DNA of 55,498 nucleotides, taken from positions 1-55,498 of the IMG/VR virus record IMGVR_UViG_3300025889_000149, one strand, 5' to 3'. The notes under the pieces are model-generated. The model searched no databases, was not told the DNA's origin, and saw only the letters and a program-made list of their open reading frames with translations. Position numbers and translations under genes: made by a program. Below, piece by piece: positions 2,447 to 28,380 of this stretch (the stretch's first letter is position 1; each line of letters starts with the position of its first letter). The stretch comes from a virus. Its lineage: Duplodnaviria > Caudoviricetes.

Positions 2447-3217
2447 ATGTTAAAATTAGCAGATATTACAAACGAAATATACTTTGCTTTCAGAAAAGCA
2501 CAAGTAGAAGCCATGAAGACTGAGAGGCTTGGTGTCATACATGTCAGTGATATTATCAAACCATGTATGAGAAACGTCATATATAAAAAGACTTTACCTG
2601 AGACTGGTATGAATACTGAAGATATGAGATCATTATATTTTGGTCAAGCAATACATTCAGCATCTATGGTAGCAAAGCCAGAGTTTCATGAAATGTTTCT
2701 AGCCTATGATTATGTCAGGGATGAACCATTAACAAGGGAAGAAGCATTAAAAATACCAGTAGATGATCCAAAACATCTGGATATTATCTATGGATCTATA
2801 GACGATTTAATGGAGATAGATGGTAAATACATTATATGTGATAAGAAAACTACTGGTTCTATTGGATATTTTAGCAAGGCTACATCCAAACCTAGTGAAT
2901 CACACGTAGATCAAATCAACAGATACAGAGTATTATTGAAAAAATGCTATGATATTGATGCTGAATTTGGATGTGTAATATACATATCAAATGCAGTAGA
3001 CAAGGAATCAAGGGATAAACCCTCATGCCTACCATTCAAACTAGCACCAATAGAGGAAACTCTAGAGGATATGATAGTAAAATCCAGACAAATAAAGGAA
3101 TCATTAACAGAAAAGACACTGCCACCTAGAGTAAAAAACTACCTATGTGATGGTTTCTGTCCATTTGCCACTATGTGTTTCGAAGACAATAGGGAGAAAT
3201 GGGATGATCTACCCTAG
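2447..3217 (+). CDS. Cas4-like PD-(D/E)xK exonuclease (solo viral Cas4)
   Basis: N-terminal Cys (PCMR), GxAIH, GSIDD...DKKT, QINRY, C-terminal CDGFCPFATMC Fe-S ligands. Confidence 0.8.
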   Translation: MLKLADITNEIYFAFRKAQVEAMKTERLGVIHVSDIIKPCMRNVIYKKTLPETGMNTEDMRSLYFGQAIHSASMVAKPEFHEMFLAYDYVRDEPLTREEALKIPVDDPKHLDIIYGSIDDLMEIDGKYIICDKKTTGSIGYFSKATSKPSESHVDQINRYRVLLKKCYDIDAEFGCVIYISNAVDKESRDKPSCLPFKLAPIEETLEDMIVKSRQIKESLTEKTLPPRVKNYLCDGFCPFATMCFEDNREKWDDLP

Positions 3218-12144: not shown

Positions 12145-12282
12145 TTAATCAGAACATTTCTGAATACAATCTTTGATTATACTCAGTCTGTACTGATTAA
12201 CATCTTGTTCTTTCTCTAATCTTGCTAACACTTTCTTAAAATCTTTCAAGTGTGCTTCTCTGTCTGACTTGTTTGAATACAT
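12145..12282 (-). CDS. 45-aa helical microprotein coupled to radA (not in ORF track)
   Basis: TAATG overlap with radA stop; followed by oligo(T). Confidence 0.5.
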   Translation of the reverse strand: MYSNKSDREAHLKDFKKVLARLEKEQDVNQYRLSIIKDCIQKCSD

Positions 12283-13289
12283 TAATCTTCTACGTTGTCT
12301 ATGCCTTTCTCATTTAATATGTATTCGGCATCTGCCATAGCATATTCTGGACTGTCTACCATTCTTGCTATTCTTTTCTTACCTGATTTCTTAAAGTATA
12401 TTCTATGTGTACTTGCATGACCTACAACATTACCCCCAATAGGTTTTATTGGATCTCCAAACATAGTAGCAGGGTCAGTTTGTACTTGGTTAGTAAAGAT
12501 AACTGTGCACTTGAAGTAATAAGTAATGTTCTTCAAGTGTGTCATTAATCTTTTGATTTGATTCTGTCTATCTGCTAGAGTACCCCTACCCAAATACTCT
12601 TCTCTGAACTGTCCAATAGCACCGTCAATGATAACAAGTCTAGGCTTGAAATCAATCATAGTCTTTGATAAATTATTGACAGTACCCATTAACAACTCTG
12701 TGTTTGGTGTGTAATAATACTTGATTCTTTCAAGTTTTTCCTTAGCATCTTCTTTATCTTCAGCATAACCTCTAGCCTTTAGTATTTCTAATATTCTAGC
12801 AGGCTTGAATGTATCTTCACAATCAATCCAAATAACATTCATGTCTTGACTGATTGCTTCTACTGTTAATGAGTTACAGAATTGTGTCTTACCACTACCG
12901 AATTCTCCATAGACTTCGTATGTAGCTTCAGGTTTAACACCACCATCCATAAGATTATCTACATCAGTACACTTTGTTCCAAGTGTAGGATAATTTTCTT
13001 GATACTCTAATAATTCCATAGTTCCCATGTCTGATTTTCTAATGTAACCATTATCTTCTAACAATTTTTGTGCATTGAATGACCATTGGTCTGCTTTCTC
13101 TCTACCTACACCAGTGATCTCTGCTATCTCAGCAGATCCTCTGACACAAATATCTAATATAGTATTAACACCAAATGCATTAAGTTTCTTTTCAGTTACA
13201 GCACCAACACCATCTAATTGTGATACTGCTAGTTCTATTTCAACTGGTTCACTTGTTTCTTGAGTTTCAATTTCTTCTACTTCAGACAT
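12282..13289 (-). CDS. radA: Archaeal RadA recombinase
   Basis: N-terminal HhH (LDGVG), GEFGSGKTQ, IDCEDTF, FREEYLGRGTLADRQ, KPIGGNVVGHAST, ARMVDSP. Confidence 0.95.
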   Translation of the reverse strand: MSEVEEIETQETSEPVEIELAVSQLDGVGAVTEKKLNAFGVNTILDICVRGSAEIAEITGVGREKADQWSFNAQKLLEDNGYIRKSDMGTMELLEYQENYPTLGTKCTDVDNLMDGGVKPEATYEVYGEFGSGKTQFCNSLTVEAISQDMNVIWIDCEDTFKPARILEILKARGYAEDKEDAKEKLERIKYYYTPNTELLMGTVNNLSKTMIDFKPRLVIIDGAIGQFREEYLGRGTLADRQNQIKRLMTHLKNITYYFKCTVIFTNQVQTDPATMFGDPIKPIGGNVVGHASTHRIYFKKSGKKRIARMVDSPEYAMADAEYILNEKGIDNVED

Positions 13290-17033: not shown

Positions 17034-17276
17034 ATGGTATTCATTATGGTTACTACCACGTTTAAAGTTATAGGAAATGATAGAGGTAATTACTATCATA
17101 ACAGCACTAGAGTAATAATATACCTACAAAACCATGAATGTATAGAAGATATTTACAAAACTATCACTCATGAAATGATTCATCATTGTATCAACGAAGC
17201 TGGAGAAGAGATGGATGATGATCAAGAAGAGGGATTAATTTTTGCCATTCAATGGGCTGAAGAAACATTAATTTGA
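17034..17276 (+). CDS. Minimal HExxH zincin-like protein
   Basis: RGNY...VIIYL...TITHEMIHH...QEE. Confidence 0.6.
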   Translation: MVFIMVTTTFKVIGNDRGNYYHNSTRVIIYLQNHECIEDIYKTITHEMIHHCINEAGEEMDDDQEEGLIFAIQWAEETLI

Positions 17277-17569
17277 TAATTTTTATCAACATATACCAAC
17301 GATGGCTTATTATCATCTAATAATACAGTATGTTTTTCATATAATTGAGTTTCATATCTATCTAATGCTTCTAAATCTTGTTCAGAGACTTCGAACCAAC
17401 CACCCTCTACAACACTGTTTTTATTTTTCTTTATTGATGGGTATGGAAGTAAACTATGTTCTGTTATCTCGAATCCACTTAGTGTTATCATTGTTAATTT
17501 GGAATCTCTATCTAATACTCTGTATCTGAGAGAATCATTCAATAATGAACCATACACAAATATTCTCAT
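17249..17569 (-). CDS. Gamma-glutamylcyclotransferase (AIG2-like)
   Basis: IFVYGSL, YPSI, VEG, LDRYE...Y. Confidence 0.85.
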   Translation of the reverse strand: MRIFVYGSLLNDSLRYRVLDRDSKLTMITLSGFEITEHSLLPYPSIKKNKNSVVEGGWFEVSEQDLEALDRYETQLYEKHTVLLDDNKPSLVYVDKNYQINVSSAH

Positions 17570-17772
17570 CGTTTATACACCATATATTTTACCCTAACAA
17601 GACCATTACAACACCCACATCTAAATCTTCCGAAATTTTTTTCTTTAATTAGGTCACTTTCTCCTATTCTTTTACCACAATCTTGACAATAGTGAAATCG
17701 ATCGGACTTTTTCTTCTGGAAAAAAGTACATTTTCCTTTGCACATCGTGTACAACTCATGTGTGTCTAGCAT
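17566..17772 (-). CDS. Cys-rich zinc finger (paralogue family)
   Basis: CKGKC...CQDC...RCGCC..LVR. Confidence 0.6.
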   Translation of the reverse strand: MLDTHELYTMCKGKCTFFQKKKSDRFHYCQDCGKRIGESDLIKEKNFGRFRCGCCNGLVRVKYMVYKR

Positions 17773-20619: not shown

Positions 20620-20922
20620 TTATTCCTCGTGATAATCCCACCAGCTTCCCTCAGCCCATCCCATACATTCACACTGTTGACGTATACCATTATGGTCTGT
20701 ATATGCAACTGCATCACATGCATGAGCAACTTCTCCATTAGCATCATATTCAATCTGATTATATTCAAAATCTCCCTCTTCATTTAAAGGTTTACTTGTG
20801 TCACGAATTTCTAATTCTTTATCAGTTTCGTAATGCATATCCCAAGTGTGTCCACATCTGGCACACTTTGGATTATAACCATCACACATACTGTCTGTTA
20901 CACCACATGGTAGACTACTCAT
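20620..20922 (-). CDS. Zinc-binding hypothetical protein
   Basis: CARCGH...H...C...CEC, same ligand layout as microprotein 1563..1709. Confidence 0.6.
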   Translation of the reverse strand: MSSLPCGVTDSMCDGYNPKCARCGHTWDMHYETDKELEIRDTSKPLNEEGDFEYNQIEYDANGEVAHACDAVAYTDHNGIRQQCECMGWAEGSWWDYHEE

Positions 20923-21044
20923 CTTGATCTGTTCCTCTGTATATTCATACAGTTATCAATACCATTTAGTTCACACTCAGCACACTTACGTGTTTCTTTG
21001 AAGTAATGCTCGAATGACTGTCGGCATGTTCTACATTTTGACAT
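20919..21044 (-). CDS. 41-aa CxxC-CxxC microprotein (not in ORF track)
   Basis: MSKCRTC...KCAEC; translationally coupled on both sides. Confidence 0.6.
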   Translation of the reverse strand: MSKCRTCRQSFEHYFKETRKCAECELNGIDNCMNIQRNRSR

Positions 21045-21187
21045 CAATCTAAATCGTACCTCATTTCCATATAGCTTGGTTCTGGACTGTATACTTCTGC
21101 ATTAGTTTCCTCTGCATATTCATCGAGCCAGTCCTTAAAAAAACGCACGATGAAATTATTCCAAATGAATAACTTTACATGATTCAT
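21044..21187 (-). CDS. 47-aa microprotein, first gene after promoter B1 (not in ORF track)
   Basis: ATG 22 nt from the TATA of promoter B1; TGATG coupling to next gene. Confidence 0.6.
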   Translation of the reverse strand: MNHVKLFIWNNFIVRFFKDWLDEYAEETNAEVYSPEPSYMEMRYDLD

Positions 21188-21238
21188 ATCTACTAATAGT
21201 CGTTAAGATATATAAACATAGATTTGAAGAAAAATAAT

Positions 21239-21391
21239 AAAGTAGGTAGGCGTGCCTGTTCTTCAATGAGCCAGAGCCCATTCTGAAAACGCCTCGTTCG
21301 TAAGTTATGTATCTCTGTATTTTTTTTTTGGACTCATGCGTATGACCTGAGCCACTCTCGTCTTTTCGAGCACCTTGAGATCCTACTCTAT
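21239..21391 (-). ncRNA. ~150-nt structured ncRNA candidate expressed from promoter B2
   Basis: No ORF; stems AGAGUAGG/CCUACUUU, AUCUC/GAGAU, CUCG/CGAG, GGCUCA/UGAGUC, AGGCGU/ACGCCU, AAUGGGC/GCUCAUU; internal A10; ends in U-rich tract. Confidence 0.65.
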
Positions 21392-21458
21392 ACCATTACT
21401 ATTGTTCTTATGATATTTAAACATATATTTGAAGCTTATGAATGATAGATTCATTCTG

Positions 21459-21574
21459 TTTTTTACTATTTTTTACTCTGATAATCAATGCATATAACGC
21501 TGTTGTAAAAACTATTTTTTTACTATTTTTTTACTATTTTTTTACTTTTTTTTACACTGGTTTTTTATTTTTTT
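21459..21574. repeat. T-rich tract with imperfect tandem TTTTTTACT(A) repeats
   Basis: About six T(5-8)AC(T) units; non-coding; adjoins motif C and repeat A1. Confidence 0.75.
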
Positions 21575-21658
21575 CACTCGTGTACAACTCATGCACACAT
21601 GCATGCGTGACATCGACATTCTTATATACCCCTATCTGTTCCAGTCACGCAAAAAAAA

Positions 21659-22126
21659 TTAAAGCCAGACTGGTATGGATCTGTTAGTCCACTTGTGTAA
21701 GTGCTGTTTGTTTGTACGATAGTAAGTACGATAAGATTCTATAACGTCGTTATTAACTTTACATTCGTCTGGCATTGCACGAGCCCATCGAGTCAAACCA
21801 ATGTCAGGTATGTCAGGCTCAGGTAATGACATGACAACATCATAAGACTTGTGATTGTTGTATTTGTTATATCTATACTTGTATTCATTATTCAATGCAA
21901 TTACCAAGTCACGTAACCAACGCCAGTTAGATAAAGAATCACGTAACCATCTATTACATGGATGGTTAACGTGTGACTTCTTGTATGGTATAACACCGTT
22001 ATAGCCAGTCTCATGTAAACAAGTGCAAAGCATTTGAGCAGACTCTAGTATCATCTTAACCACATGTCTGTCACAATGTGCACGAGCACATGCATCTATG
22101 TCATTATCTAAAACAAAAATGTTCAT
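21659..22126 (-). CDS. Pyrimidine-dimer DNA glycosylase/endonuclease V-like family protein
   Basis: MNIFVLD...HCDRHVVKMILESAQML...NHP...EY..RY...H. Confidence 0.75.
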   Translation of the reverse strand: MNIFVLDNDIDACARAHCDRHVVKMILESAQMLCTCLHETGYNGVIPYKKSHVNHPCNRWLRDSLSNWRWLRDLVIALNNEYKYRYNKYNNHKSYDVVMSLPEPDIPDIGLTRWARAMPDECKVNNDVIESYRTYYRTNKQHLHKWTNRSIPVWL

Positions 22127-22437
22127 AGTAATTGATACGCTTTTCTCATACTTAAGCCTAACTTTGAAGCGTATCTAATATACTCTGATACATTAGAGAG
22201 ACTATGCCCTTGCTCTAACATGAGCCAAATCACACGAGCTAAGTATCTATTGTTGACCCCCGAAGTCTTCAATACTTTCTCAGTGCTTACTCTAGTAAAA
22301 CTAGAGGGAAGAGCAAGGACATGCTCTGAAGTTATGTAACCTAGCACATGAGCCAGAGCTAGGTAAGGACACTGATAACTGTATACTATTGTATCAGCCT
22401 CATCCAGTGCATTAGTGATATATTCTATGTCATTCAT
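22123..22437 (-). CDS. Hypothetical protein
   Basis: Translationally coupled ORF in the B3 operon. Confidence 0.6.
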   Translation of the reverse strand: MNDIEYITNALDEADTIVYSYQCPYLALAHVLGYITSEHVLALPSSFTRVSTEKVLKTSGVNNRYLARVIWLMLEQGHSLSNVSEYIRYASKLGLSMRKAYQLL

Positions 22438-22603
22438 TTTGTCTTTTCTCCATTACTTCTTTAACATGTCGACATGTATGTCTATACTTGTAACCAATAC
22501 AGTCACATGATATAACACCGTTATCAATAGAGACAAAGTGTGAAGACTCTGGATTACTCCTAGAGTCACACTGGAATAGAGTTTCAGATAGTTGCTGTAT
22601 CAT
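22430..22603 (-). CDS. 57-aa SWIM zinc finger protein (not in ORF track)
   Basis: SRS....H.V......SCDC.GY.YR.TCRH; overlaps both neighbours. Confidence 0.7.
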   Translation of the reverse strand: MIQQLSETLFQCDSRSNPESSHFVSIDNGVISCDCIGYKYRHTCRHVKEVMEKRQNE

Positions 22604-22902
22604 ATCCTAAAGTCCTTTTCCTTGTCTTTAAGTATCTTAAACCCAGTGACTTCTTGTGCATCCTCAAGCAAGGCATAGAATACGTCACTGTATTCTCTAA
22701 CTGCCATCTTGTCAAGGATTTTGTATTCCATGATTACAATGCCACACAAGTCAGACCATCCAACCTTTCTATTCATACGTCTTAATATGTCACTGGTACG
22801 TTTGGACAACATGATACCATCCTCAGTTTTTTTGACACGCTTTAATATGCCGATAGAAATCATCTCATCGATGATAACGTGTAGCTTCTTAGAGTCTACC
22901 AT
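22600..22902 (-). CDS. Hypothetical protein
   Basis: Coupled ORF in the B3 operon. Confidence 0.6.
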   Translation of the reverse strand: MVDSKKLHVIIDEMISIGILKRVKKTEDGIMLSKRTSDILRRMNRKVGWSDLCGIVIMEYKILDKMAVREYSDVFYALLEDAQEVTGFKILKDKEKDFRI

Positions 22903-23697
22903 TTATACCATCTCCCAACTTCTATCATCATCACTGTCTAACGTGGATTGACCTTTCTTAAGTTTGTCATAAAACTTAGAATACCATTCCATATCCGATA
23001 GTACCTCGTCTTCTTCGTCTTGATTTTCGATTGTGATTGTGTCTCCCATGTATTCGTCTTCTTGTGACCATGCTGTTTGAAACCACATGTTTTCGTCGTT
23101 TTTTTTGAATGTTTTCTTACTGTCATTACTGGATTTAACAAAGTAGTTATTACTACATTTGTTACCATCGACAGTGACCCATCCATCTCCGAAACGTCTG
23201 ATACCATTGATGTCTAACACTGTTATTTTGTTACGACCCTCAATTAGATTGAGTATGTTCTCTCCATAAGCATCGGCTAATGTAGCCATGCATCTAGAGT
23301 CAGACCAATCAGCACCATCTCCCAACTGAATCTTACCAGCTAATACACCTTGAGCTAACCACTCACGCCAGTCAGACCATGTACCATTATGAAACAGAAC
23401 CTTATCAGTTTCTCCCTCAAGTGTCAATGGCACACCAGTTTCCACTGGAAATGGATGGCATAGTTGATGGTTTACATTACCAACCGATGCGATTCTAAAG
23501 TGGATGATAGCAGGTAGTTTTACAACACCGTTATCAATCAAGGCTTGGATAGTAGTTGCATCTACACCTTTACGATAAGATACAGTACCTTTCTCATTGA
23601 GCCATGCTATACCAGCACCATGAGAGTTTAGAGCCTCAGCATCTCTCATAGTCTCGTATGTTGGGAACTTGTCGTCACAAGAAATGATTACACACAT
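22903..23697 (-). CDS. Class II (Ntn) glutamine amidotransferase
   Basis: N-terminal MC nucleophile, N.HGAG, HFRIASVG, HPF, FHNG, SDS. Confidence 0.85.
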   Translation of the reverse strand: MCVIISCDDKFPTYETMRDAEALNSHGAGIAWLNEKGTVSYRKGVDATTIQALIDNGVVKLPAIIHFRIASVGNVNHQLCHPFPVETGVPLTLEGETDKVLFHNGTWSDWREWLAQGVLAGKIQLGDGADWSDSRCMATLADAYGENILNLIEGRNKITVLDINGIRRFGDGWVTVDGNKCSNNYFVKSSNDSKKTFKKNDENMWFQTAWSQEDEYMGDTITIENQDEEDEVLSDMEWYSKFYDKLKKGQSTLDSDDDRSWEMV

Positions 23698-24875
23698 ATC
23701 TCACAACCCCCCTCGAATATTGGTTCGTCAGCATTGTCAGCTAGGTAAGTGTTTACGATGTCGTAAAACTCATGGATAGCAGACTTTGCTATTCGTGACT
23801 CGTTGAATGTTGGTAAGAGTCTAGACTCTAGTGTCTCATGTAGTTCGTAACAGTAGTTAAGCATACAGTATCTCTCAGAGATTCTACGTGATGCTCTGAA
23901 TTGTGCCATCGCTTTGAATGATTTTCTAGCATAGTATACATTACCAGCTAGTCTATTCCAGAAGCGTGAGCCCTCATTGATATTGTTACGCATAGCCCAC
24001 TCTTGGTAACGCTTTAGATAGTATCTAAAGAATCTAGGAGTCATAAGTTTACCATAGGCTAGCTTGTCTCCGTTTGTGGAAATATGCACATGTATGCCAC
24101 ATGAAGAGTCCATTCTGTCTGGATAATGTTTATCAATCCATTTGTCAATCTCGTCAATAGGTACTGCATCACTGTTAGTTTCTCCAGCAAAGGGATTACA
24201 GTCACAAGCATCCTCGTCACAATGACATGAGATGTCTCTTAAACTGTCATTAACAGAGCCATCCCTATACATGTCGTCAGTCTTGACACGCCATGCACCC
24301 TCAATCTCAACGCCAGTCAATGAGACACCGTTGATACTTTTTGATATAAGACCATCTTTGCTAATCTTATAACCATTCAAGGATTTCTTGACTTTTTTAA
24401 TACCAAAGTGCTTGGAAACAAAGAGCGTGTTGACTCTTATATTAGATGCACCGATGGCACTGGCATACATGTTAATGACACTTGTTAAGTAGTCAACCAA
24501 TGCACGCTGTAATGAATTTCTGTATTTGGTATACATAGTTTCAGGCACGACCATTTTATAGACACAATGCTGAATTCCACTAGCCATTGAGTAGGCACTG
24601 TATGGCAAATTTATTTTACCATCGTTACCATTTCTGAATAAGTTACCCATGTGACAAACATCCTCAACATTGACAGTCATATAACTGTAGGAATCGATAA
24701 GTGCTGTCTGTCTCACTTTCTCGATAACTGGTAGTGCCAATCTAAGGAATTCAGACTTAGTAATTAATTCTAAGCCAGCATTAGTACGCTCAATACTAAC
24801 AGAAAAATCAATGTCTATTGGTAAGACACCGTTAGTAAGACGTGATGCTTGTGTAAGCAATTCGATTTGACTCAT
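23688..24875 (-). CDS. Putative amidoligase (COOH-NH2 ligase, Amidoligase_2-like)
   Basis: GVEIE, DGS, GE, CGIHVH, RY..LN, E.R; start reassigned to ATG 24875, 23 nt from promoter B3. Confidence 0.75.
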   Translation of the reverse strand: MSQIELLTQASRLTNGVLPIDIDFSVSIERTNAGLELITKSEFLRLALPVIEKVRQTALIDSYSYMTVNVEDVCHMGNLFRNGNDGKINLPYSAYSMASGIQHCVYKMVVPETMYTKYRNSLQRALVDYLTSVINMYASAIGASNIRVNTLFVSKHFGIKKVKKSLNGYKISKDGLISKSINGVSLTGVEIEGAWRVKTDDMYRDGSVNDSLRDISCHCDEDACDCNPFAGETNSDAVPIDEIDKWIDKHYPDRMDSSCGIHVHISTNGDKLAYGKLMTPRFFRYYLKRYQEWAMRNNINEGSRFWNRLAGNVYYARKSFKAMAQFRASRRISERYCMLNYCYELHETLESRLLPTFNESRIAKSAIHEFYDIVNTYLADNADEPIFEGGCEICV

Positions 24876-25261
24876 GAAGTAGTAAACGTCGTTATCATAT
24901 ATAAGTCGATATTTGAAGACCATTACACATACCAATTAGCCATACAATAGACAATGATAAATACCCCTATCTCCCCTATAAACCCCTCTAACCTCAATAT
25001 TGTTGTATAAACGTCTCATTCGATTCGTAAGGTAGAGCCTCATACAGCACGCACACGCACATAAAAAGAATTTTTTTTTATTTTCGTAATACAAACGCCA
25101 TCCCATCATAACTCTCGCGTACAACAGTTAATCTTATATACCCCTATTCGTCGTAGACATTCTTATATACCCCTACTTGTTCATAGTTAATCTTATAAAC
25201 CCCTACCTAATTCGACAATCTTATATAGCCCTACTTTGAGAACTATATAAAAAAAATGGGA

Positions 25262-25507
25262 TTAATAATCCCAATCGCCCGATGTACATTCAGGCTCGAT
25301 ACATGATTCTACGCCTGCATAATAGTTACCCTCTATACTTTCATACCATGCATGCTTTAAAGAACCCGAAAACTTTTCAGTCTCTTTAAGCATCATGATA
25401 TGATCTCTAAGGACTAACTTAGCAGAGATCATAGTATCGCACTTTTCGTTATAGTCAGGTAAACAGCCATGAATACCAGCCATAACGTGATAATGAAGCT
25501 TGCTCAT
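25262..25507 (-). CDS. Cassette microprotein (81 aa)
   Basis: Promoter B4 23 nt upstream; oligo(T) and four A repeats downstream. Confidence 0.75.
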   Translation of the reverse strand: MSKLHYHVMAGIHGCLPDYNEKCDTMISAKLVLRDHIMMLKETEKFSGSLKHAWYESIEGNYYAGVESCIEPECTSGDWDY

Positions 25508-25653
25508 TGTAATATATTATTTTTTTTCCTATATAAGACTTTATTTGAAGACCCCCTTAATCGTGTACAGACGTGTACGACCAACAATCTTATATACCCC
25601 TACCTGAATCAACAATCTTATATACCCCTATCTTTCCCCTGTTATAAAAAAAA

Positions 25654-25878
25654 TCAGTAGCTTCTATCGAAGCCATAATAATCGAGAACTCTATTAATCA
25701 TCTTACTAGATGTCATAGATGCTCGATTAATTGATAATACTTTCTTAGAACTTGTATCAAGTTCTAGAATAGTAGTACCATAGTGAATGACTTTAACAAA
25801 TTCGCCAGACTTTAACACAACTGAAGCCTTAACGCATTTGATGTCACTCACTGTAGTGAGGTTATCGAGAACGCTCAT
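25654..25878 (-). CDS. Cassette microprotein (74 aa)
   Basis: Promoter B5; HYGTTI...SMTSSKMINR; oligo(T) and two A repeats downstream. Confidence 0.75.
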   Translation of the reverse strand: MSVLDNLTTVSDIKCVKASVVLKSGEFVKVIHYGTTILELDTSSKKVLSINRASMTSSKMINRVLDYYGFDRSY

Positions 25879-25924
25879 AGTATACTAATAGTTAACATGA
25901 TATATAAACATAGATTTGAAGATT

Positions 25925-25975
25925 TTGGGTACTCAGCCTGACCTATCGAAGTCAGCGATAATGCCTTTTCCCTTT
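25925..25975 (-). ncRNA. ~50-nt structured RNA or leader after promoter B6
   Basis: No ATG; GGG/CCC and GGC/GCU stems around an AAAA/GAGUA internal loop, plus hairpin CUGACUU-CGAU-AGGUCAG. Confidence 0.5.
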
Positions 25976-26075
25976 GATTACTAATAGTTAACATAATATA
26001 TAAGCATTACTTTGAAGCCATGCTACCACCAATCTTATATACCCCTACTATTACCACGCCAAAAAAAAGAGAGGG

Positions 26076-26219
26076 TCACACAAACTCAGGAACGCCCTGT
26101 GTTGTGTTTCTACCCTGCACTCTGGCTTTAGAATGAAACTCTGTATGTCTTTTAACCCTTAAAGAAAAATCGGGGTCTGTCTCATCGAAGTGCATTGAGC
26201 ACAAAGAACAATTAGCCAT
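26076..26219 (-). CDS. 47-aa C2H2-like cassette microprotein (not in ORF track)
   Basis: MANCSLC...RHTEFH; promoter B7 22 nt upstream. Confidence 0.7.
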   Translation of the reverse strand: MANCSLCSMHFDETDPDFSLRVKRHTEFHSKARVQGRNTTQGVPEFV

Positions 26220-26316
26220 AAGTAACATTGGTCGTTATGATATATAAATATAGATATGAAGCCCTATCGTATCATCATTCTTAAATACCCCTACTATCCC
26301 TAATAATAAAAAAGAG

Positions 26317-26547
26317 TTAGAAGATCATCTCTTCATGGACTTGGATTTTAGACTTTGGATTTGTATGCATGATGTAATCGATGTATAGTTGTTTCAAAGT
26401 ATGATAAACCAAATAGATGCTCTTTTGGACATCATCATGGCTCATGTTATCTGTTGGAACAAACTTACCATCATCCATTCTACGACTTATCATCTTTAAC
26501 AAATCGCCACACGAATCTAATTCACGTTTTGAAACGGATGTTTCCAT
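26317..26547 (-). CDS. Cassette microprotein (76 aa)
   Basis: Promoter B8 23 nt upstream; oligo(T) and A repeat downstream. Confidence 0.75.
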   Translation of the reverse strand: METSVSKRELDSCGDLLKMISRRMDDGKFVPTDNMSHDDVQKSIYLVYHTLKQLYIDYIMHTNPKSKIQVHEEMIF

Positions 26548-26666
26548 ACTATACTAATAGTCCTCATACTATATAAACACATATTTGAAGCACTCGCATA
26601 CACATTACTAGCACCAATCTTATATACCCCTACATGTGAGTTACATTATAAAAAAAATGTTGAGGA

Positions 26667-26729
26667 TTACTCCTCACTATATGTGCCATCATAAGGATTT
26701 GGCTCGTAGTCTTCGTACATATCATCCAT
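26667..26729 (-). CDS. 20-aa acidic peptide MDDMYEDYEPNPYDGTYSEE (not in ORF track)
   Basis: ATG 22 nt from promoter B9; stop lies in hairpin TGAGGA-GTAA-TCCTCA followed by T8. Confidence 0.6.
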   Translation of the reverse strand: MDDMYEDYEPNPYDGTYSEE

Positions 26730-26894
26730 AATATACCATAGTCGTTATAATATATAAACACAGATATGAAGCATTTTTTTTATTTACACACACATATCAG
26801 CCCTAACAGTCGCGTACAGACGACAATCTTAAATACCCCTACTTGAATCAACAATCTTAAATACCCCTACTAGTGCTCTTTAATAAAAAAAGGC

Positions 26895-27056
26895 TTAAGA
26901 GTAATAGCCAGTATTAACACCGTCTATCTCTTTCTGTTCCATTCTTTCCATTCGTCTTTCTATTCTAGCGATAAGTATGCAACGCATTTTATCATCCAAG
27001 TCTTTATCAAAACTTATCTGACTTATTCGCTGACAGTCTAATTCGTATTGACTCAT
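26895..27056 (-). CDS. 53-aa cassette microprotein (not in ORF track)
   Basis: MSQYELDCQR...GYYS; promoter B10 22 nt upstream. Confidence 0.7.
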   Translation of the reverse strand: MSQYELDCQRISQISFDKDLDDKMRCILIARIERRMERMEQKEIDGVNTGYYS

Positions 27057-27169
27057 AACTATCTATACTCATCATAATATTTAAACTAATATTTGAAGCC
27101 CTATCAACCCCATCGCTCGTGTACAATCGGCAATCTTATATACCCCTACCTTAGTATATAAAAAAAGGG

Positions 27170-27388
27170 TTAGACGTTTAAAGATCGCCTATAACCCATG
27201 TAGTTTAGGGCTTTGTCCATCTTTTCCCAAAAGTAACCACTGTTCACAAAAGAGTAGTCATTGGGATGGTTTTGCATTTTTGCAATCTCCAAAACACAAC
27301 AAAGTAACTTAGTTGCCACATTGGCATCTAAGTCAGATGACAATCTGTTTGCTTCGGAGATCAGTCCATGAATTGTGTGTTGATCCAT
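27170..27388 (-). CDS. Cassette microprotein (72 aa)
   Basis: Promoter B11 22 nt upstream; oligo(T) and A repeat downstream. Confidence 0.75.
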   Translation of the reverse strand: MDQHTIHGLISEANRLSSDLDANVATKLLCCVLEIAKMQNHPNDYSFVNSGYFWEKMDKALNYMGYRRSLNV

Positions 27389-27539
27389 ACATAAACTGCT
27401 TCGTTATGATTAATAAACATAGATTTGAAGAAACATAGTCATTCTTATATACCCCTACCTAGATTAGTCATTCTTAAATACCCCTACTCTACCAATGCTT
27501 CAAATATCGACTTATATACTATAACGACTAATGATCTTC

Positions 27540-27779
27540 ATGAGCACAGTTAAGATCAATGGAAAGTTGTTCTTCATCAGAGCATCTTTCACAAAGAAAC
27601 ACTACGGTATTCATAACCTCGTCAACTTTTCAATATGGTGGGGTCGTGAAAGAGATCATGAGATCTTCCTTTATGGAAGTACTAAGGTAGAGAACCATAG
27701 AAACTATCCAACACAAGCAAGGAAATATCCAATGATCGGTATTCAATACAACAACCTCAAAAAGAGAAGACTCGATTAA
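27540..27779 (+). CDS. Basic cassette microprotein (79 aa), divergent unit
   Basis: Plus-strand promoter B12 (27498-27518) 22 nt upstream; T10 after stop. Confidence 0.7.
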   Translation: MSTVKINGKLFFIRASFTKKHYGIHNLVNFSIWWGRERDHEIFLYGSTKVENHRNYPTQARKYPMIGIQYNNLKKRRLD

Positions 27780-27932
27780 TTCTTTTTTTTTTAACATTTC
27801 CACAGTGTTAAAAACACGAATATTGCGTGCCAAGTAAACATGGAGAAAAGTCAAAATTTTAAAAAAATCGGGATACAAATCCTGAATACAAATCGGCACA
27901 AGTTTTATAAACAACAGGTGCGTATACAAGGG

Positions 27933-28232
27933 GTGGACTTTTTACCAAAACAAATACTAGTCAAGGAACACTTGCTAACCAAACTGGAAGTCGCAACAGT
28001 ACCAAAGGACTTTTACAAATCCAGACCATGTGATGAAACAATGGTGGAACTAATCAGACTCAGAAAAAGAAAGATAACACAAATAGCACTAAACTGTCCA
28101 TCGGATGAAATTATTTCAAAACTCAGTGAAGAAGAGGAAGAGTTTTATAAAATATTGGTGGGTGCATCTAAAAAAATAGACGACCTTATTTGTATCGAGC
28201 AAGAAGCCGATTATATTGTGGATCATTCCTAA
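27933..28232 (+). CDS. GINS (Gins23/Psf2 A-domain)-like protein
   Basis: KE.....L...VPKDFY...LIRLRKRKITQIA...IISKLSEEEEEFY; GTG start 22 nt after TTTATAAA (27904-27911). Confidence 0.55.
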   Translation: MDFLPKQILVKEHLLTKLEVATVPKDFYKSRPCDETMVELIRLRKRKITQIALNCPSDEIISKLSEEEEEFYKILVGASKKIDDLICIEQEADYIVDHS

Positions 28233-28380
28233 AGTCCTCTAGAAATTCTCTCATAACCATATAATCATCATTGTCTTCTAATATTTCATCCCATAGATGT
28301 GAACATCGAGGGCAAGGGGAGAAAATAAACAGATATGTCATAATATCATATTCTTCAACTGTCTGCTTTCTCATTTTCAC
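28186..28380 (-). CDS. Hypothetical protein
   Basis: Overlapping minus-strand ORF with CPRC. Confidence 0.45.
   Translation of the reverse strand: MKMRKQTVEEYDIMTYLFIFSPCPRCSHLWDEILEDNDDYMVMREFLEDFRNDPQYNRLLARYK

What the first reader, a model, noticed from the sequence alone, without database searches (positions are those of the whole stretch)
21044..27792. Modular expression-cassette array built from three conserved DNA motifs
Seen: 12 units, each starting with the same 21-bp promoter B, then cargo 22-23 nt after the TATA box, usually an oligo(T) tract, then 1-4 copies of repeat A and often motif C before the next promoter. Cargo is unrelated between units: seven single microproteins (20-81 aa), two operons and two ORF-less RNAs. 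Other promoters in the window lack the CTTCAWA element. Inference: a co-regulated, probably early host-takeover regulon whose repeats allow cassette gain, loss and shuffling by recombination (viral RadA is encoded), integron-like but with no integrase. Analogues exist (promoter/stem-loop cassettes of T4-type phages, intergenic repeats of HF2-like haloviruses), but I do not know this three-motif grammar from AOA viruses.
Basis: partly seen in the sequence, partly recalled or inferred. Interest (0 to 1): 0.9.

Follow-up and report, generated by a model that had tools for sequence, protein, structure and literature searches.

The report
Shuffled promoter cassettes, archaeal tailed virus
A 6-kb stretch of an uncultured archaeal tailed virus consists of a dozen small self-contained transcription units that share one special promoter and the same boundary repeats, and related viruses in nature carry these units in different numbers and orders; this is a new variant of the regulatory cassettes already known from T4-type phages and salt-lake archaeal viruses.

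Summary
The 21-bp motif B occurs 12 times (0.06 expected). The 18-bp repeat A occurs 16 times (0.24 expected). All copies lie in 21209-27518. On the gene strand the order is stop, T6-10, 10-16 nt, A x1-4, often motif C, B, 21-23 nt, ATG.

B is a distinct archaeal promoter class. It has CTTCAWA upstream and ATAACGAC downstream of the TATA box, and the window's other candidate promoters lack both.

Cargo is eight unrelated ORFan microproteins, two operons, one conserved structured ncRNA and one duplicated promoter.

- A 99.9% identical contig lacks the 96 bp between two tandem B copies.
- Contigs from two studies carry a permuted cassette order with breakpoints at A.
- A relative about 48% identical in protein keeps the grammar with diverged motifs and shares 3 of 8 cassettes.

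A has a TATA-box core, flips orientation between lineages and has no gene at leaderless distance. Its role is open: boundary or TBP-docking element, or counter-promoter.

"Early host takeover" and the ammonia-oxidiser host are untested.

The kind is known: T4-type PeSLs, the HGTV-1 motif and HF2 intergenic repeats. This scan has noted similar arrays in other archaeal viruses. Verdict: new variant of a known kind.

The parts
27498..27518 (+). Promoter B (the only plus-strand copy). It drives the 79-aa ORF 27540-27779 and is divergent from B at 27410-27430.
27540..27779 (+). 79-aa ORFan cassette. A T10 run at 27782-27791 follows it, with no A after it.
27441..27487 (-). Two copies of repeat A between the divergent B promoters. 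No terminator lies here. The edge at 27487 is a breakpoint in a variant contig.
27410..27430 (-). Promoter B
27170..27388 (-). 72-aa ORFan cassette, followed by T7
27132..27149 (-). Repeat A
27117..27125 (-). Motif C
27078..27098 (-). Promoter B
26895..27056 (-). 53-aa ORFan cassette, followed by T7
26825..26870 (-). Two copies of repeat A
26810..26818 (-). Motif C
26751..26771 (-). Promoter B
26667..26729 (-). 20-aa acidic ORF cassette, followed by T8. One variant contig carries an in-frame 18-nt insertion here.
26616..26633 (-). Repeat A. A breakpoint lies 8 nt beyond it in contigs of two runs.
26570..26590 (-). Promoter B
26317..26547 (-). 76-aa ORFan cassette, followed by T6. It sits at another position in the variant contigs.
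26277..26294 (-). Repeat A. The breakpoint at 26296 lies at its edge.
26241..26261 (-). Promoter B
26076..26219 (-). 47-aa Cys/His-rich ORF cassette (start taken at the second ATG), followed by T8. Its homologues sit elsewhere in L019 and L020.
26031..26048 (-). Repeat A. A breakpoint lies 7 nt beyond it.
25997..26017 (-). Promoter B, upstream copy of a tandem pair. The 96 bp from here to the next B are absent from the 99.9% identical contig L021.
25901..25921 (-). Promoter B, downstream copy of the tandem pair
25654..25878 (-). 74-aa cassette, followed by T8. It has a homologue in L019 (44% identity).
25586..25631 (-). Two copies of repeat A
25561..25569 (-). Motif C, with a second variant copy 10 nt upstream on the gene strand
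25530..25550 (-). Promoter B
25262..25507 (-). 81-aa cassette, followed by T8. It has a homologue in L019 (39% identity), in the same place before the operon.
25130..25234 (-). Cluster of four A copies with a 28-30 nt period. One unit (30 nt) is missing in a contig of run X12.
25115..25123 (-). Motif C
24953..24970 (-). Degenerate A copy (3 mismatches)
24898..24918 (-). Promoter B of operon 1
21659..24875 (-). Operon 1, six genes ending in T8: a 395-aa protein of a small family without a Pfam match, a 264-aa protein with weak class-II amidotransferase matches, a 100-aa protein, a 57-aa SWIM zinc finger, a 104-aa protein, and a 155-aa protein matching phrog_624 'DNA binding protein'. It is syntenic in L019, L020 and L031.
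22148..22170 (-). Degenerate 13th B-like promoter inside the 104-aa coding region, 22 nt before the ATG of the 155-aa gene
21618..21635 (-). Repeat A after operon 1
21578..21586 (-). Motif C
21414..21434 (-). Promoter B of the ncRNA unit, preceded by tandem A-rich repeats spaced 9-12 nt (21442-21580)
21236..21392 (-). ORF-less unit holding a conserved structured ncRNA of about 155 nt
21209..21229 (-). Promoter B of operon 2 (47-aa ORF 21044-21187, then onward to the AAA_5 ATPase and the VWA protein)

Best explanation
The region is the hyperplastic, non-structural arm of an archaeal tailed virus. It is organised as self-contained transcription units.

Each unit has four parts:
- A virus-specific promoter class, B. 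It has an upstream CTTCAWA element, a TATA box and a conserved ATAACGAC proximal element.
- The cargo, which starts about 22 nt after the TATA box. That spacing implies leaderless mRNA.
- An oligo-T terminator.
- Between the terminator and the next promoter, 1-4 copies of boundary repeat A (an 18-mer with a TATA-box core) and often motif C.

Shown here: the grammar, its statistical significance, its class specificity and its conservation with diverged motif sequences in relatives. Also shown: units are lost, gained, duplicated and re-ordered between relatives, with breakpoints inside B or at the edges of A.

Inferred: the repeats serve as short homologies for recombination, with the viral RadA as a candidate enzyme. 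The result would be PeSL-like modular shuffling of ORFan genes, without a site-specific recombinase.

Inferred with less confidence: A is an orientation-independent docking site, most likely for TBP because only its TATA core is shared across lineages. It would mark the 5' boundary of a cassette and insulate or feed the next promoter.

Inferred by analogy only: the regulon is expressed early.
For: Statistics: B has 12 matches against 0.06 expected. A has 16 against 0.24. C has 6 against 0.19. All but one C copy lie in 21209-27518.

Grammar: the order is fixed and the spacings are tight. Terminator to A is 10-16 nt in 8 of 8 cases. TATA to ATG is 21-23 nt.

Class specificity: of about 29 other candidate promoters in the window, 0 have CTTCAWA or ATAACGAC. 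The B composite is not enriched in 121 sampled genomes of one archaeal class: 20 matches against 27 for the reversed control.

A goes with the B unit rather than with the terminator. Two A copies lie between the divergent B promoters, where there is no terminator. The T10 terminator of the plus-strand ORF has no A after it.

Conservation:
- L019, whose 415-aa homologue is 48% identical, has the same order T-run, A, C, promoter, ATG. Its motifs have diverged: AATCAAA in place of CTTCAAA, and GTARGGRTATATAAASAGTT in place of A.
- L020 and L031 also have A-like clusters and a TCAA(A/C)-type promoter before the homologous operon.

Plasticity:
- L021, 99.7-99.9% identical, lacks exactly the 96 bp between two tandem B copies. 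The 39-nt overlap lies inside the B repeat.
- A 574-nt contig of run X12 (depth 19) joins 27355-27487 | 26296-26608 | 26024-26130. A 464-nt contig of run X14 (depth 12, another study) joins 26317-26607 | 26023-26195.
- These contigs give the gene order 47-aa, 76-aa, 72-aa, against 72, 53, 20, 76, 47 in the window. The joints lie 0-8 nt from A copies, the shorter sides are 107-173 nt, and only 0-3 letters are ambiguous at each joint.
- One A unit (30 nt) is missing from the fourfold cluster in X12.
- Only 3 of the window's 8 single cassettes have homologues in L019, and 3 of L019's 8 have homologues in the window. The flanking genes are conserved.
- The ncRNA cassette and two small ORFs sit at different array positions in other lineages.

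Enzymes: RadA is present. No integrase or resolvase was found.

Precedent:
- PeSLs (PMC2839356, abstract and one Results section; PMC4122927, abstract).
- HGTV-1: 21 of 23 long intergenic regions of its small-ORF arm have T-run, stem-loop, a GGTATATAAA-like element, a proximal TATA promoter (mostly preceded by CGAAA, by eye) and the ATG.
Against: There are no transcript data. No RNA run is listed, so promoter, terminator and timing calls rest on sequence alone.

The structural variants come from metagenome contigs, not reads or isolates. Only three joints have long flanks. Four further joints have shorter sides of only 20-25 nt and may be mis-placed motif matches, so I did not count them.

Between the window and L019, the two conserved cassettes next to the operon keep their order. 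Shuffling is therefore not free.

RadA involvement is untested. Replication slippage or host recombination would produce the same products.

The role of A is not settled:
- It sits at a constant distance from the terminator, which fits a terminator-linked role.
- All 16 copies in the window have one orientation, but orientation is mixed in L019 (9 forward, 7 inverted) and opposite in L031.
- The A flanks are lineage-specific, which TBP binding alone does not explain.
Confidence: 0.7

Rival explanations
1. Repeat A is itself a promoter, one-way or two-way, like the class II intergenic repeats of halovirus HF2. It would give counter-transcripts across the preceding cassette, or leadered transcripts into the next one. 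Each cassette would then have two promoter classes, for example for temporal control. This can coexist with the cassette-shuffling reading.
For: A contains a perfect TATA octamer like those of B and of the other promoters.

Read on the plus strand, the TATA box is preceded by a fairly A-rich stretch (CAACAATC), resembling the A-rich stretch before the window's other promoters.

HF2 class II repeats are 29 bp long, are made of AT motifs separated by C runs, and drive a reporter in both directions. One of them sits at a strand-switch point (PMC8707807, abstract, section 3.1 and Discussion). The A unit has a 28-30 nt period, and two copies sit at the strand switch.

In L031 about ten copies point towards the operon.
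Against: No ORF starts at leaderless distance from A in either direction, in the window or in seven other loci (L019, L027, L031, L036, L046, L047, L048). The window's other candidate promoters were all picked for a TATA box 19-25 nt before an ATG.

Tandem copies 28-30 nt apart would place one start site inside the next TATA element.

Orientation relative to the genes is not conserved between lineages.

There are no RNA data.
Confidence: 0.3
2. The A copies are iterons or operator sites of a virus-encoded DNA-binding protein. Candidates are the phrog_624 protein or the 100-aa protein of operon 1. The big A cluster before operon 1 would be a replication origin, and the single copies would be regulatory sites of the same protein.
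For: In every lineage examined a cluster of A copies with AT-rich runs lies just upstream of the conserved operon. I count 4-5 copies in the window, 5 in L019, 5 in L020 and about 10 in L031.

The A flanks are lineage-specific, as expected for co-evolution with a viral protein.

Replication genes flank the array: MCM and a weak GINS-like match.

The cumulative GC skew turns near 29-30 kb.
Against: The part of A shared across lineages, including HGTV-1, is just the TATA box plus GG. That points to a host factor.

Single copies punctuate every cassette over 6 kb, which is not origin-like.

The GC-skew turn coincides with the switch of coding strand, so it is uninformative.

No initiator protein was identified.
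Confidence: 0.12
3. The array is a static set of co-regulated genes. The apparent re-ordering reflects assembly chimeras or distinct related viruses, not recombination at the repeats.
For: All variant evidence comes from short metagenome contigs. A and B are the best-conserved stretches, so alignment ends tend to fall near them. Four of the eight listed joints have only 20-25 nt on the shorter side.
Against: The repeats are 18-22 nt, which I recall to be shorter than the 31-letter words of the assemblies (the word length is recalled, not from a call). The joints have only 0-3 ambiguous letters.

One junction is seen in two runs of different studies, with 107 and 173 nt on the shorter side.

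The 96-bp indel lies in an independent 6.8-kb contig that is otherwise 99.7-99.9% identical.

Deep relatives differ in 5 of 8 cassettes between conserved flanks.
Confidence: 0.08

Closest known systems
PeSL (promoter-early stem-loop) regulatory cassettes of T4-type phages (Arbiol et al. 2010, PMC2839356; Comeau et al. 2014, PMC4122927)
   Same: Short composite promoter/terminator motifs are repeated before ORFan genes in a hyperplastic region. Recombination between copies explains indels and replacements between close relatives. No site-specific recombinase is involved.
   Different: The transcription signals here are archaeal (TATA box, oligo-T, leaderless starts), not sigma-70 plus Shine-Dalgarno. 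The window has no conserved stem-loop. It has an extra TATA-core boundary repeat (A) in 1-4 copies, plus motif C. Mini-circles were not looked for.
Conserved TATA-like box plus inverted repeat before most ORFs of one arm of halovirus HGTV-1 (Sencilo et al. 2013, as cited in PMC3950731; I could not read the original)
   Same: HGTV-1 is an archaeal tailed virus and the best large-terminase match in the 'phages' collection (32% identity). Its array of small ORFs has one repeated intergenic module. In the HGTV-1 record, 21 of 23 long intergenic regions read T-run, stem-loop, a GGTATATAAA-like element, proximal promoter, ATG. The second TATA-core element sits in the same place and orientation as A.
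   Different: The HGTV-1 module has a strong stem-loop, and by eye most proximal promoters are preceded by CGAAA. The window has neither. It has the CTTCAWA element, tandem A copies and motif C instead. Apart from the TATA core, the motif sequences share nothing.
Intergenic repeats (class I, 58 bp; class II, 29 bp) of halovirus HF2 and other haloferacalesviruses (Russ, Pfeiffer and Dyall-Smith 2021, PMC8707807)
   Same: Virus-specific repeated intergenic sequences carry promoters with extra conserved blocks. There are two repeat classes in one genome. The class II repeats work in both directions and one sits at a strand switch.
   Different: HF2 repeats are few (7 + 2), head long multi-gene transcripts, and keep their positions within the genus. 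Here nearly every small gene has its own unit, and positions vary. HF2 promoter activity was measured; nothing was measured here.
Bacterial integrons
   Same: Both are arrays of single-gene cassettes of unrelated function with a repeated boundary sequence.
   Different: No integrase was found, and there are no attC-type imperfect inverted repeats. Each cassette has its own promoter and terminator, not one common promoter.

Membership tests
PeSL cassettes (T4-type phages) | A repeated composite motif combining an early promoter with a terminator or attenuator, in intergenic regions | tested here: met
   There are 12 B promoters, and 9 coding units (8 single-ORF units and operon 1) end in T6-10. 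The order is fixed. Function is inferred from sequence only.
PeSL cassettes (T4-type phages) | A sigma-70-type promoter (-35/-10) with an AT-rich upstream region | tested here: not met
   The promoters are of the archaeal TATA-box type with leaderless spacing. This is an analogue, not a member.
PeSL cassettes (T4-type phages) | A stable stem-loop within the motif | tested here: not met
   No conserved inverted repeat lies within the intergenic regions of the window. The long inverted pairs listed join distant B copies. L019 and L027 do have inverted pairs of A-like elements.
PeSL cassettes (T4-type phages) | Concentrated in hyperplastic regions, upstream of ORFans | tested here: met
   All copies lie within 6.3 kb. 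The seven single cassette proteins scanned (all but the 20-aa ORF) have no PHROG match and only two weak Pfam matches below cut-off. Five of the 8 have no homologue in L019.
PeSL cassettes (T4-type phages) | Indels and replacements between close relatives have their breakpoints in the motifs | tested here: met
   There is a 96-bp indel between tandem B copies. The permuted order has joints 0-8 nt from A in two runs.
PeSL cassettes (T4-type phages) | Excised mini-circles formed by exchange between neighbouring motifs | not testable with these tools
   Contigs cannot tell a circle junction from a re-ordered genome. One junction (26607|26023) would fit either.
HGTV-1-type conserved intergenic motif | A TATA-like box plus an inverted repeat before most ORFs of one genome arm | tested here: inconclusive
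   TATA-like elements occur before each ORF: met. The inverted repeat is absent in the window. Only the GG+TATA core is shared. The original description was not readable.
HF2-type intergenic repeats | Repeats show promoter activity in a reporter assay, and their positions are conserved within the genus | not testable with these tools
   No expression data exist. Positions are only partly conserved here.
Integron | An IntI tyrosine recombinase next to the array | tested here: not met
   PF00589 and PF00239 give 0 matches in the record, which is about 89% complete.
Integron | Promoterless cassettes bounded by attC sites and read from one common promoter | tested here: not met
   Each unit has its own B promoter and T-run. 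A is not an imperfect palindrome.

The most novel reading that the evidence does not exclude
Repeat A is a new class of cis-element: an auxiliary TATA box with no gene at leaderless distance. It would dock TBP in either orientation, mark the 5' edge of each mobile cassette, and insulate or feed the next promoter. It would also be the crossover point for recombinase-free cassette exchange, perhaps driven by RadA. Its GG+TATA core at the same place in HGTV-1, and in several unrelated IMG/VR contigs, would make it a widespread organising principle of the variable arms of archaeal tailed viruses. The array's best-conserved cargo would be a structured ncRNA of unknown function that itself moves between array positions.
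Probability: 0.25. Interest if true: 0.7.

Novelty: new variant of a known kind. Interest (0 to 1): 0.5.

Why it matters
It gives a sequence-level example, with natural structural variants, of how an archaeal tailed virus turns over its ORFan genes without a site-specific recombinase. T4-type phages use the same strategy, rebuilt here from archaeal transcription signals.

It also defines a virus-specific promoter class and a second TATA-core element. Both could be tested directly with archaeal TBP and TFB paralogues.

Finally, it points to a very conserved viral ncRNA. If the host is an ammonia-oxidising archaeon, these would be the first regulatory signals described for such viruses. That host link is not shown here.

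Tried and rejected
Relatives by single protein: the search for related loci with the 415-aa protein and with the AAA_5 ATPase found no relative in viral contigs. An alignment of 8 homologues was needed.

Exact A pattern in public collections: there were 10 single matches in viral contigs and 23 in genome contigs. Almost all were bacterial, and the number is of the order I estimate for chance (my arithmetic, no tool control). The one hit in a MAG labelled Nitrosopumilaceae lies in 61% G+C DNA and carries no array. I found no sign that a sampled cellular genome holds A arrays.

Strict B-plus-ATAACGA pattern, and a 25-nt piece of the ncRNA: in viral contigs each matched only the contig of L019.

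Expression: no RNA holder is listed for the stretch, so nothing can be said either way.

Weak joints were set aside: 25148>27116, 25630>27498, 26262>26612 and 26296>26885 (shorter side 20-25 nt), and 25973>25883 (shorter side 39 nt). The short side is about one motif long and could belong to any copy.

A as a proximal leaderless promoter: rejected. No ORF start lies 19-25 nt from it in either direction.

A plus C as one oriented promoter: rejected. In L019, C stays downstream of A on the gene strand whichever way A points. The A-to-C spacing also differs between the window (about 6 nt) and L019 (11-13 nt).

Rfam: no family matched in 20900-28300 except a sub-threshold snoRNA-like match outside the array.

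Host: RadA against named phage records gave only 25-27% matches to haloviruses and Listeria phages. Cluster look-ups gave no taxon names.

My first B pattern had the wrong spacing and is superseded. Supplementary files of papers were not consulted. PeSL supplements may hold motif details that I did not see.

Full report
WHAT THE RECORD IS

The window is a whole IMG/VR virus record of 55,498 bp, linear and about 89% complete. It encodes a T4-type large terminase, a portal (a weak match below Pfam's cut-off), a tail tube protein, MCM, RadA, an AAA_5 ATPase and a VWA protein. Among named phage records, the best terminase match is the haloarchaeal myovirus HGTV-1, at 32% identity over 90% of the query. 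It is therefore an archaeal tailed virus.

The gene set radA + ATPase + CobS-like fits what is written about 'Marthavirus', putative viruses of marine and freshwater ammonia oxidisers (PMC7678222, passages). I could not show the host. The viral RadA is only 35-45% identical (in the listed best matches) to RadA in the 117 of 121 sampled genomes that matched, in the class containing a MAG labelled Nitrosopumilaceae. It is about 70% identical to many unnamed metagenome proteins, several of them on contigs of about 59 kb. DNA runs of 12 studies (freshwater, marine, estuary) hold parts of the stretch.

THE OBSERVATION

Motif B (CTTCAWA-N6-YWTAWWWA) has 12 exact matches against 0.06 expected. All lie in 21209-27518, 11 on the minus strand and one divergent on the plus strand. 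Repeat A has 16 matches at up to 3 mismatches against 0.24 expected. All are on the minus strand in 21618-27487. Motif C has 6 exact matches against 0.19 expected, 5 of them in the array.

Read on the gene strand, the intergenic regions follow one order:
- stop codon, then T6-10
- 10-16 nt (8 of 8 cases)
- A in 1-4 copies with a 28-30 nt period
- C, about 6 nt after the last A where it is present
- B
- 21-23 nt, then ATG

At least one A lies upstream of 10 of the 12 B copies. The two exceptions are the second members of tandem B pairs.

I count eight single-ORF units (79, 72, 53, 20, 76, 47, 74 and 81 aa), two operons and two ORF-less units. A 13th, degenerate B-like promoter lies inside a coding region, 22 nt before the 155-aa gene.

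The cassette proteins are unrelated to each other: all BLASTP pairs have E >= 0.1. The seven scanned (all but the 20-aa ORF) have no PHROG match and only two weak Pfam matches below cut-off.

B IS A PROMOTER CLASS OF ITS OWN

About 29 other places in the window have a TATA box 19-25 nt before the ATG of an ORF of 45 aa or more. None has CTTCAWA or the ATAACGAC block that follows the B TATA box. By eye, many of the plus-strand late-gene candidates have an A-rich stretch directly before the TATA box, which B lacks.

The spacing implies leaderless mRNAs. This is inferred from general knowledge of archaeal promoters, not measured.

The B composite is not a common promoter of the 121 genomes sampled from one archaeal class: 20 matches against 27 for the reversed control.

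RELATIVES KEEP THE GRAMMAR BUT NOT THE MOTIF SEQUENCES

The 415-aa protein has 8 homologues in the large protein collection. An alignment of them retrieved L019 (48% identity, from a 59.5-kb contig), L020 (41%) and the near-identical L021.

L019 shows the same order of T-run, A-like repeat, C-like GTACGCGAG, promoter, about 22 nt, ATG, for at least ten units. Its promoter element is AATCAAA and its repeat is GTARGGRTATATAAASAGTT. It has 9 copies in the window's orientation and 7 inverted. It also has a divergent promoter pair with an A copy between them, as in the window.

L020 and L031 have clusters of A-like AACCTTTATATACC elements. L031 has about ten, all in the opposite orientation to the window. 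In both, a TCAA(A/C)-type promoter precedes the homologous operon.

The motifs therefore evolve in concert within a genome and diverge between genomes.

CASSETTES ARE GAINED, LOST AND MOVED

(a) L021 matches the window at 99.7-99.9% over 6.8 kb. The one exception is the 96 bp between the tandem B copies at 25901-25921 and 25997-26017, which it lacks. The two alignment blocks overlap by 39 nt inside the B repeat. The 'ORF-less RNA' of that unit is thus dispensable and most likely a promoter duplication.

(b) I laid contigs of four runs on 20900-28300.
- In run X12, a 574-nt contig at depth 19 reads 27355-27487 | 26296-26608 | 26024-26130.
- In run X14, from another study, a 464-nt contig at depth 12 reads 26317-26607 | 26023-26195.
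- On the gene strand this gives 47-aa gene, A, B, 76-aa gene, A-A, B, 72-aa gene. The window has the order 72, 53, 20, 76, 47.
- The joints lie 0-8 nt from A copies. Only 0-3 letters are ambiguous at each joint, and the shorter sides are 107-173 nt.
- X12 also lacks one 30-nt unit of the fourfold A cluster. It carries an in-frame 18-nt insertion in the 20-aa ORF, which argues that this tiny ORF is translated.
- Four further joints have only 20-25 nt on one side. I did not count them.

(c) At greater depth, 3 of the window's 8 single cassettes have homologues in L019, and 3 of L019's 8 have homologues in the window. The flanking GINS-like gene, the 81-aa cassette and the six-gene operon are conserved. 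A 42-aa ORF, the 47-aa Cys/His ORF and the ncRNA sit at different positions in different lineages.

No integrase or resolvase is present. RadA is present.

The evidence is at contig level, and the two cassettes next to the operon keep their place.

WHAT IS REPEAT A?

Its only part shared across lineages is GG plus a TATA box:
- window: GTAGGGGTATWTAAGAWT
- L019: GTARGGRTATATAAASAGTT
- L020 and L031: AGGGTATATAAAGGTT
- other IMG/VR contigs such as L027, L036, L046, L047 and L048: GGGGTATATAARG, in 6 to 16 copies

In the HGTV-1 record itself, 21 of 23 long intergenic regions of the small-ORF arm read T-run, 32-35 nt holding a stem-loop, a GGTATATAAA-like element, 47-62 nt (in 18 of the 21) holding a proximal TATA promoter that is mostly preceded by CGAAA (by eye), then ATG. 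So a second TATA-core element sits between terminator and promoter in a haloarchaeal virus too.

A has no ORF at leaderless distance in either direction. Its orientation is uniform in the window, mixed in L019 and reversed in L031.

A accompanies B units rather than terminators. Two copies lie between the divergent promoters, and none follows the plus-strand T10 terminator. The variant joints put the cassette edge at its 5' end.

My preferred reading, which is an inference, is an orientation-independent docking site, probably for TBP. It would bound each cassette and double as recombination homology.

The main rival is that A is a one- or two-way promoter like the HF2 class II repeats, which are 29 bp long, are built of AT motifs separated by C runs, and are active in both directions (PMC8707807). 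An iteron or origin reading is less likely. None of these can be settled without RNA or binding data.

THE NCRNA UNIT

The unit at 21236-21392 (minus strand) folds with a z-score of -2.68. By eye, its 3' half of about 80 nt is nearly identical in L019 (one small indel), although the proteins compared between these genomes are 34-83% identical. One hairpin is replaced by a longer one in L019.

A 66-nt core is 80% identical in L031, L042, L049 and L050. In L031 and L049 (by coordinates) it lies upstream of the operon, inside the A cluster. In a four-sequence alignment covering two lineages, 17 pairs are predicted, 4 have changes on both sides and none is broken. Rfam has no match.

This is a real, conserved viral ncRNA of unknown function. 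It is also a cassette that has moved.

COMPARISON AND VERDICT

The layout works like the PeSLs of T4-type phages (PMC2839356, abstract and one Results section; PMC4122927, abstract). It is not a member of that family, because the promoters are archaeal and the window has no stem-loop.

The closest archaeal precedents are two. One is the HGTV-1 motif, likened to PeSLs by its authors according to PMC3950731 (passage); the original paper is not held. The other is the HF2 intergenic repeats. It is not an integron.

Searches of the paper library with 'Marthavirus' plus promoter, intergenic and repeats (none of the 12 listed papers holds the word 'Marthavirus'), and with archaeal-virus promoter terms, listed no description of such motifs in viruses of ammonia oxidisers. 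This scan has itself noted comparable arrays in other archaeal viruses.

I rate it a new variant of a known kind. The distinctive points are the three-motif grammar with a second TATA-core element, contig-level evidence of re-ordering at that element in natural populations, and a highly conserved ncRNA cargo.

Noticed in passing
window 21236-21392 (-); L019 13570-13765; L031 about 2740-3116: This is a conserved structured ncRNA under a B promoter. By eye its 3' half is nearly identical in L019, although the proteins compared between the two genomes are 34-83% identical. There are 4 compensatory pairs of 17 against the L031 lineage, and no Rfam match. In L031 the transcript would be about 370 nt, and it lies at another array position.
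   Followed up: partly
window 21442-21580: Tandem A-rich repeats spaced 9-12 nt (T-rich on the plus strand) lie just upstream of the ncRNA promoter. A comparable A-rich block precedes the ncRNA promoter in L019, and one follows the operon in L020. One X12 contig lacks 23 nt here. This may be a bent-DNA upstream element.
   Followed up: no
window 22148-22170 (-): A degenerate B-like promoter is embedded in the 3' end of the 104-aa coding region. It lies 22 nt before the ATG of the 155-aa phrog_624 'DNA binding protein' gene.
   Followed up: partly
L027 1100-4300 (also L038, L046, L048, L036): Other viral contigs of 40-43% G+C carry 7-16 GGGGTATATAA elements. In L027, read in full, some form perfect palindromes directly after stop codons. 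Others lie about 10 nt before a second TATA box that heads genes with GAGG ribosome-binding leaders. This looks like a related but distinct cassette grammar.
   Followed up: partly
window 26667-26729 (-): A contig of run X12 carries an in-frame 18-nt insertion in the 20-aa acidic ORF. This suggests that the tiny ORF is translated.
   Followed up: no
window 12282-13289 (-): The viral RadA is about 70% identical to many unnamed metagenome proteins of about 347 aa, several on contigs of 58-63 kb. It is only 35-45% identical to RadA of the sampled archaeal class. This may mark a large family of similar viruses. The host is unresolved.
   Followed up: partly
window 27840-28232 (+): A 130-aa protein, divergent from the array, has a weak match to the GINS/Sld5 helical domain (E 2.8e-4, just below the cut-off). 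It is conserved in L019 in the same position.
   Followed up: no
window 17745-17753 (-): One exact copy of motif C lies outside the array, in the region between the 106-aa ORF (17249-17569) and the VWA gene.
   Followed up: no
window 22903-24875 (-): The first two genes of operon 1 are a 395-aa protein with invariant Cys/His/Asp columns and only 8 homologues in the large collection, and a protein with weak class-II glutamine amidotransferase matches. The pair is syntenic in all relatives found.
   Followed up: no
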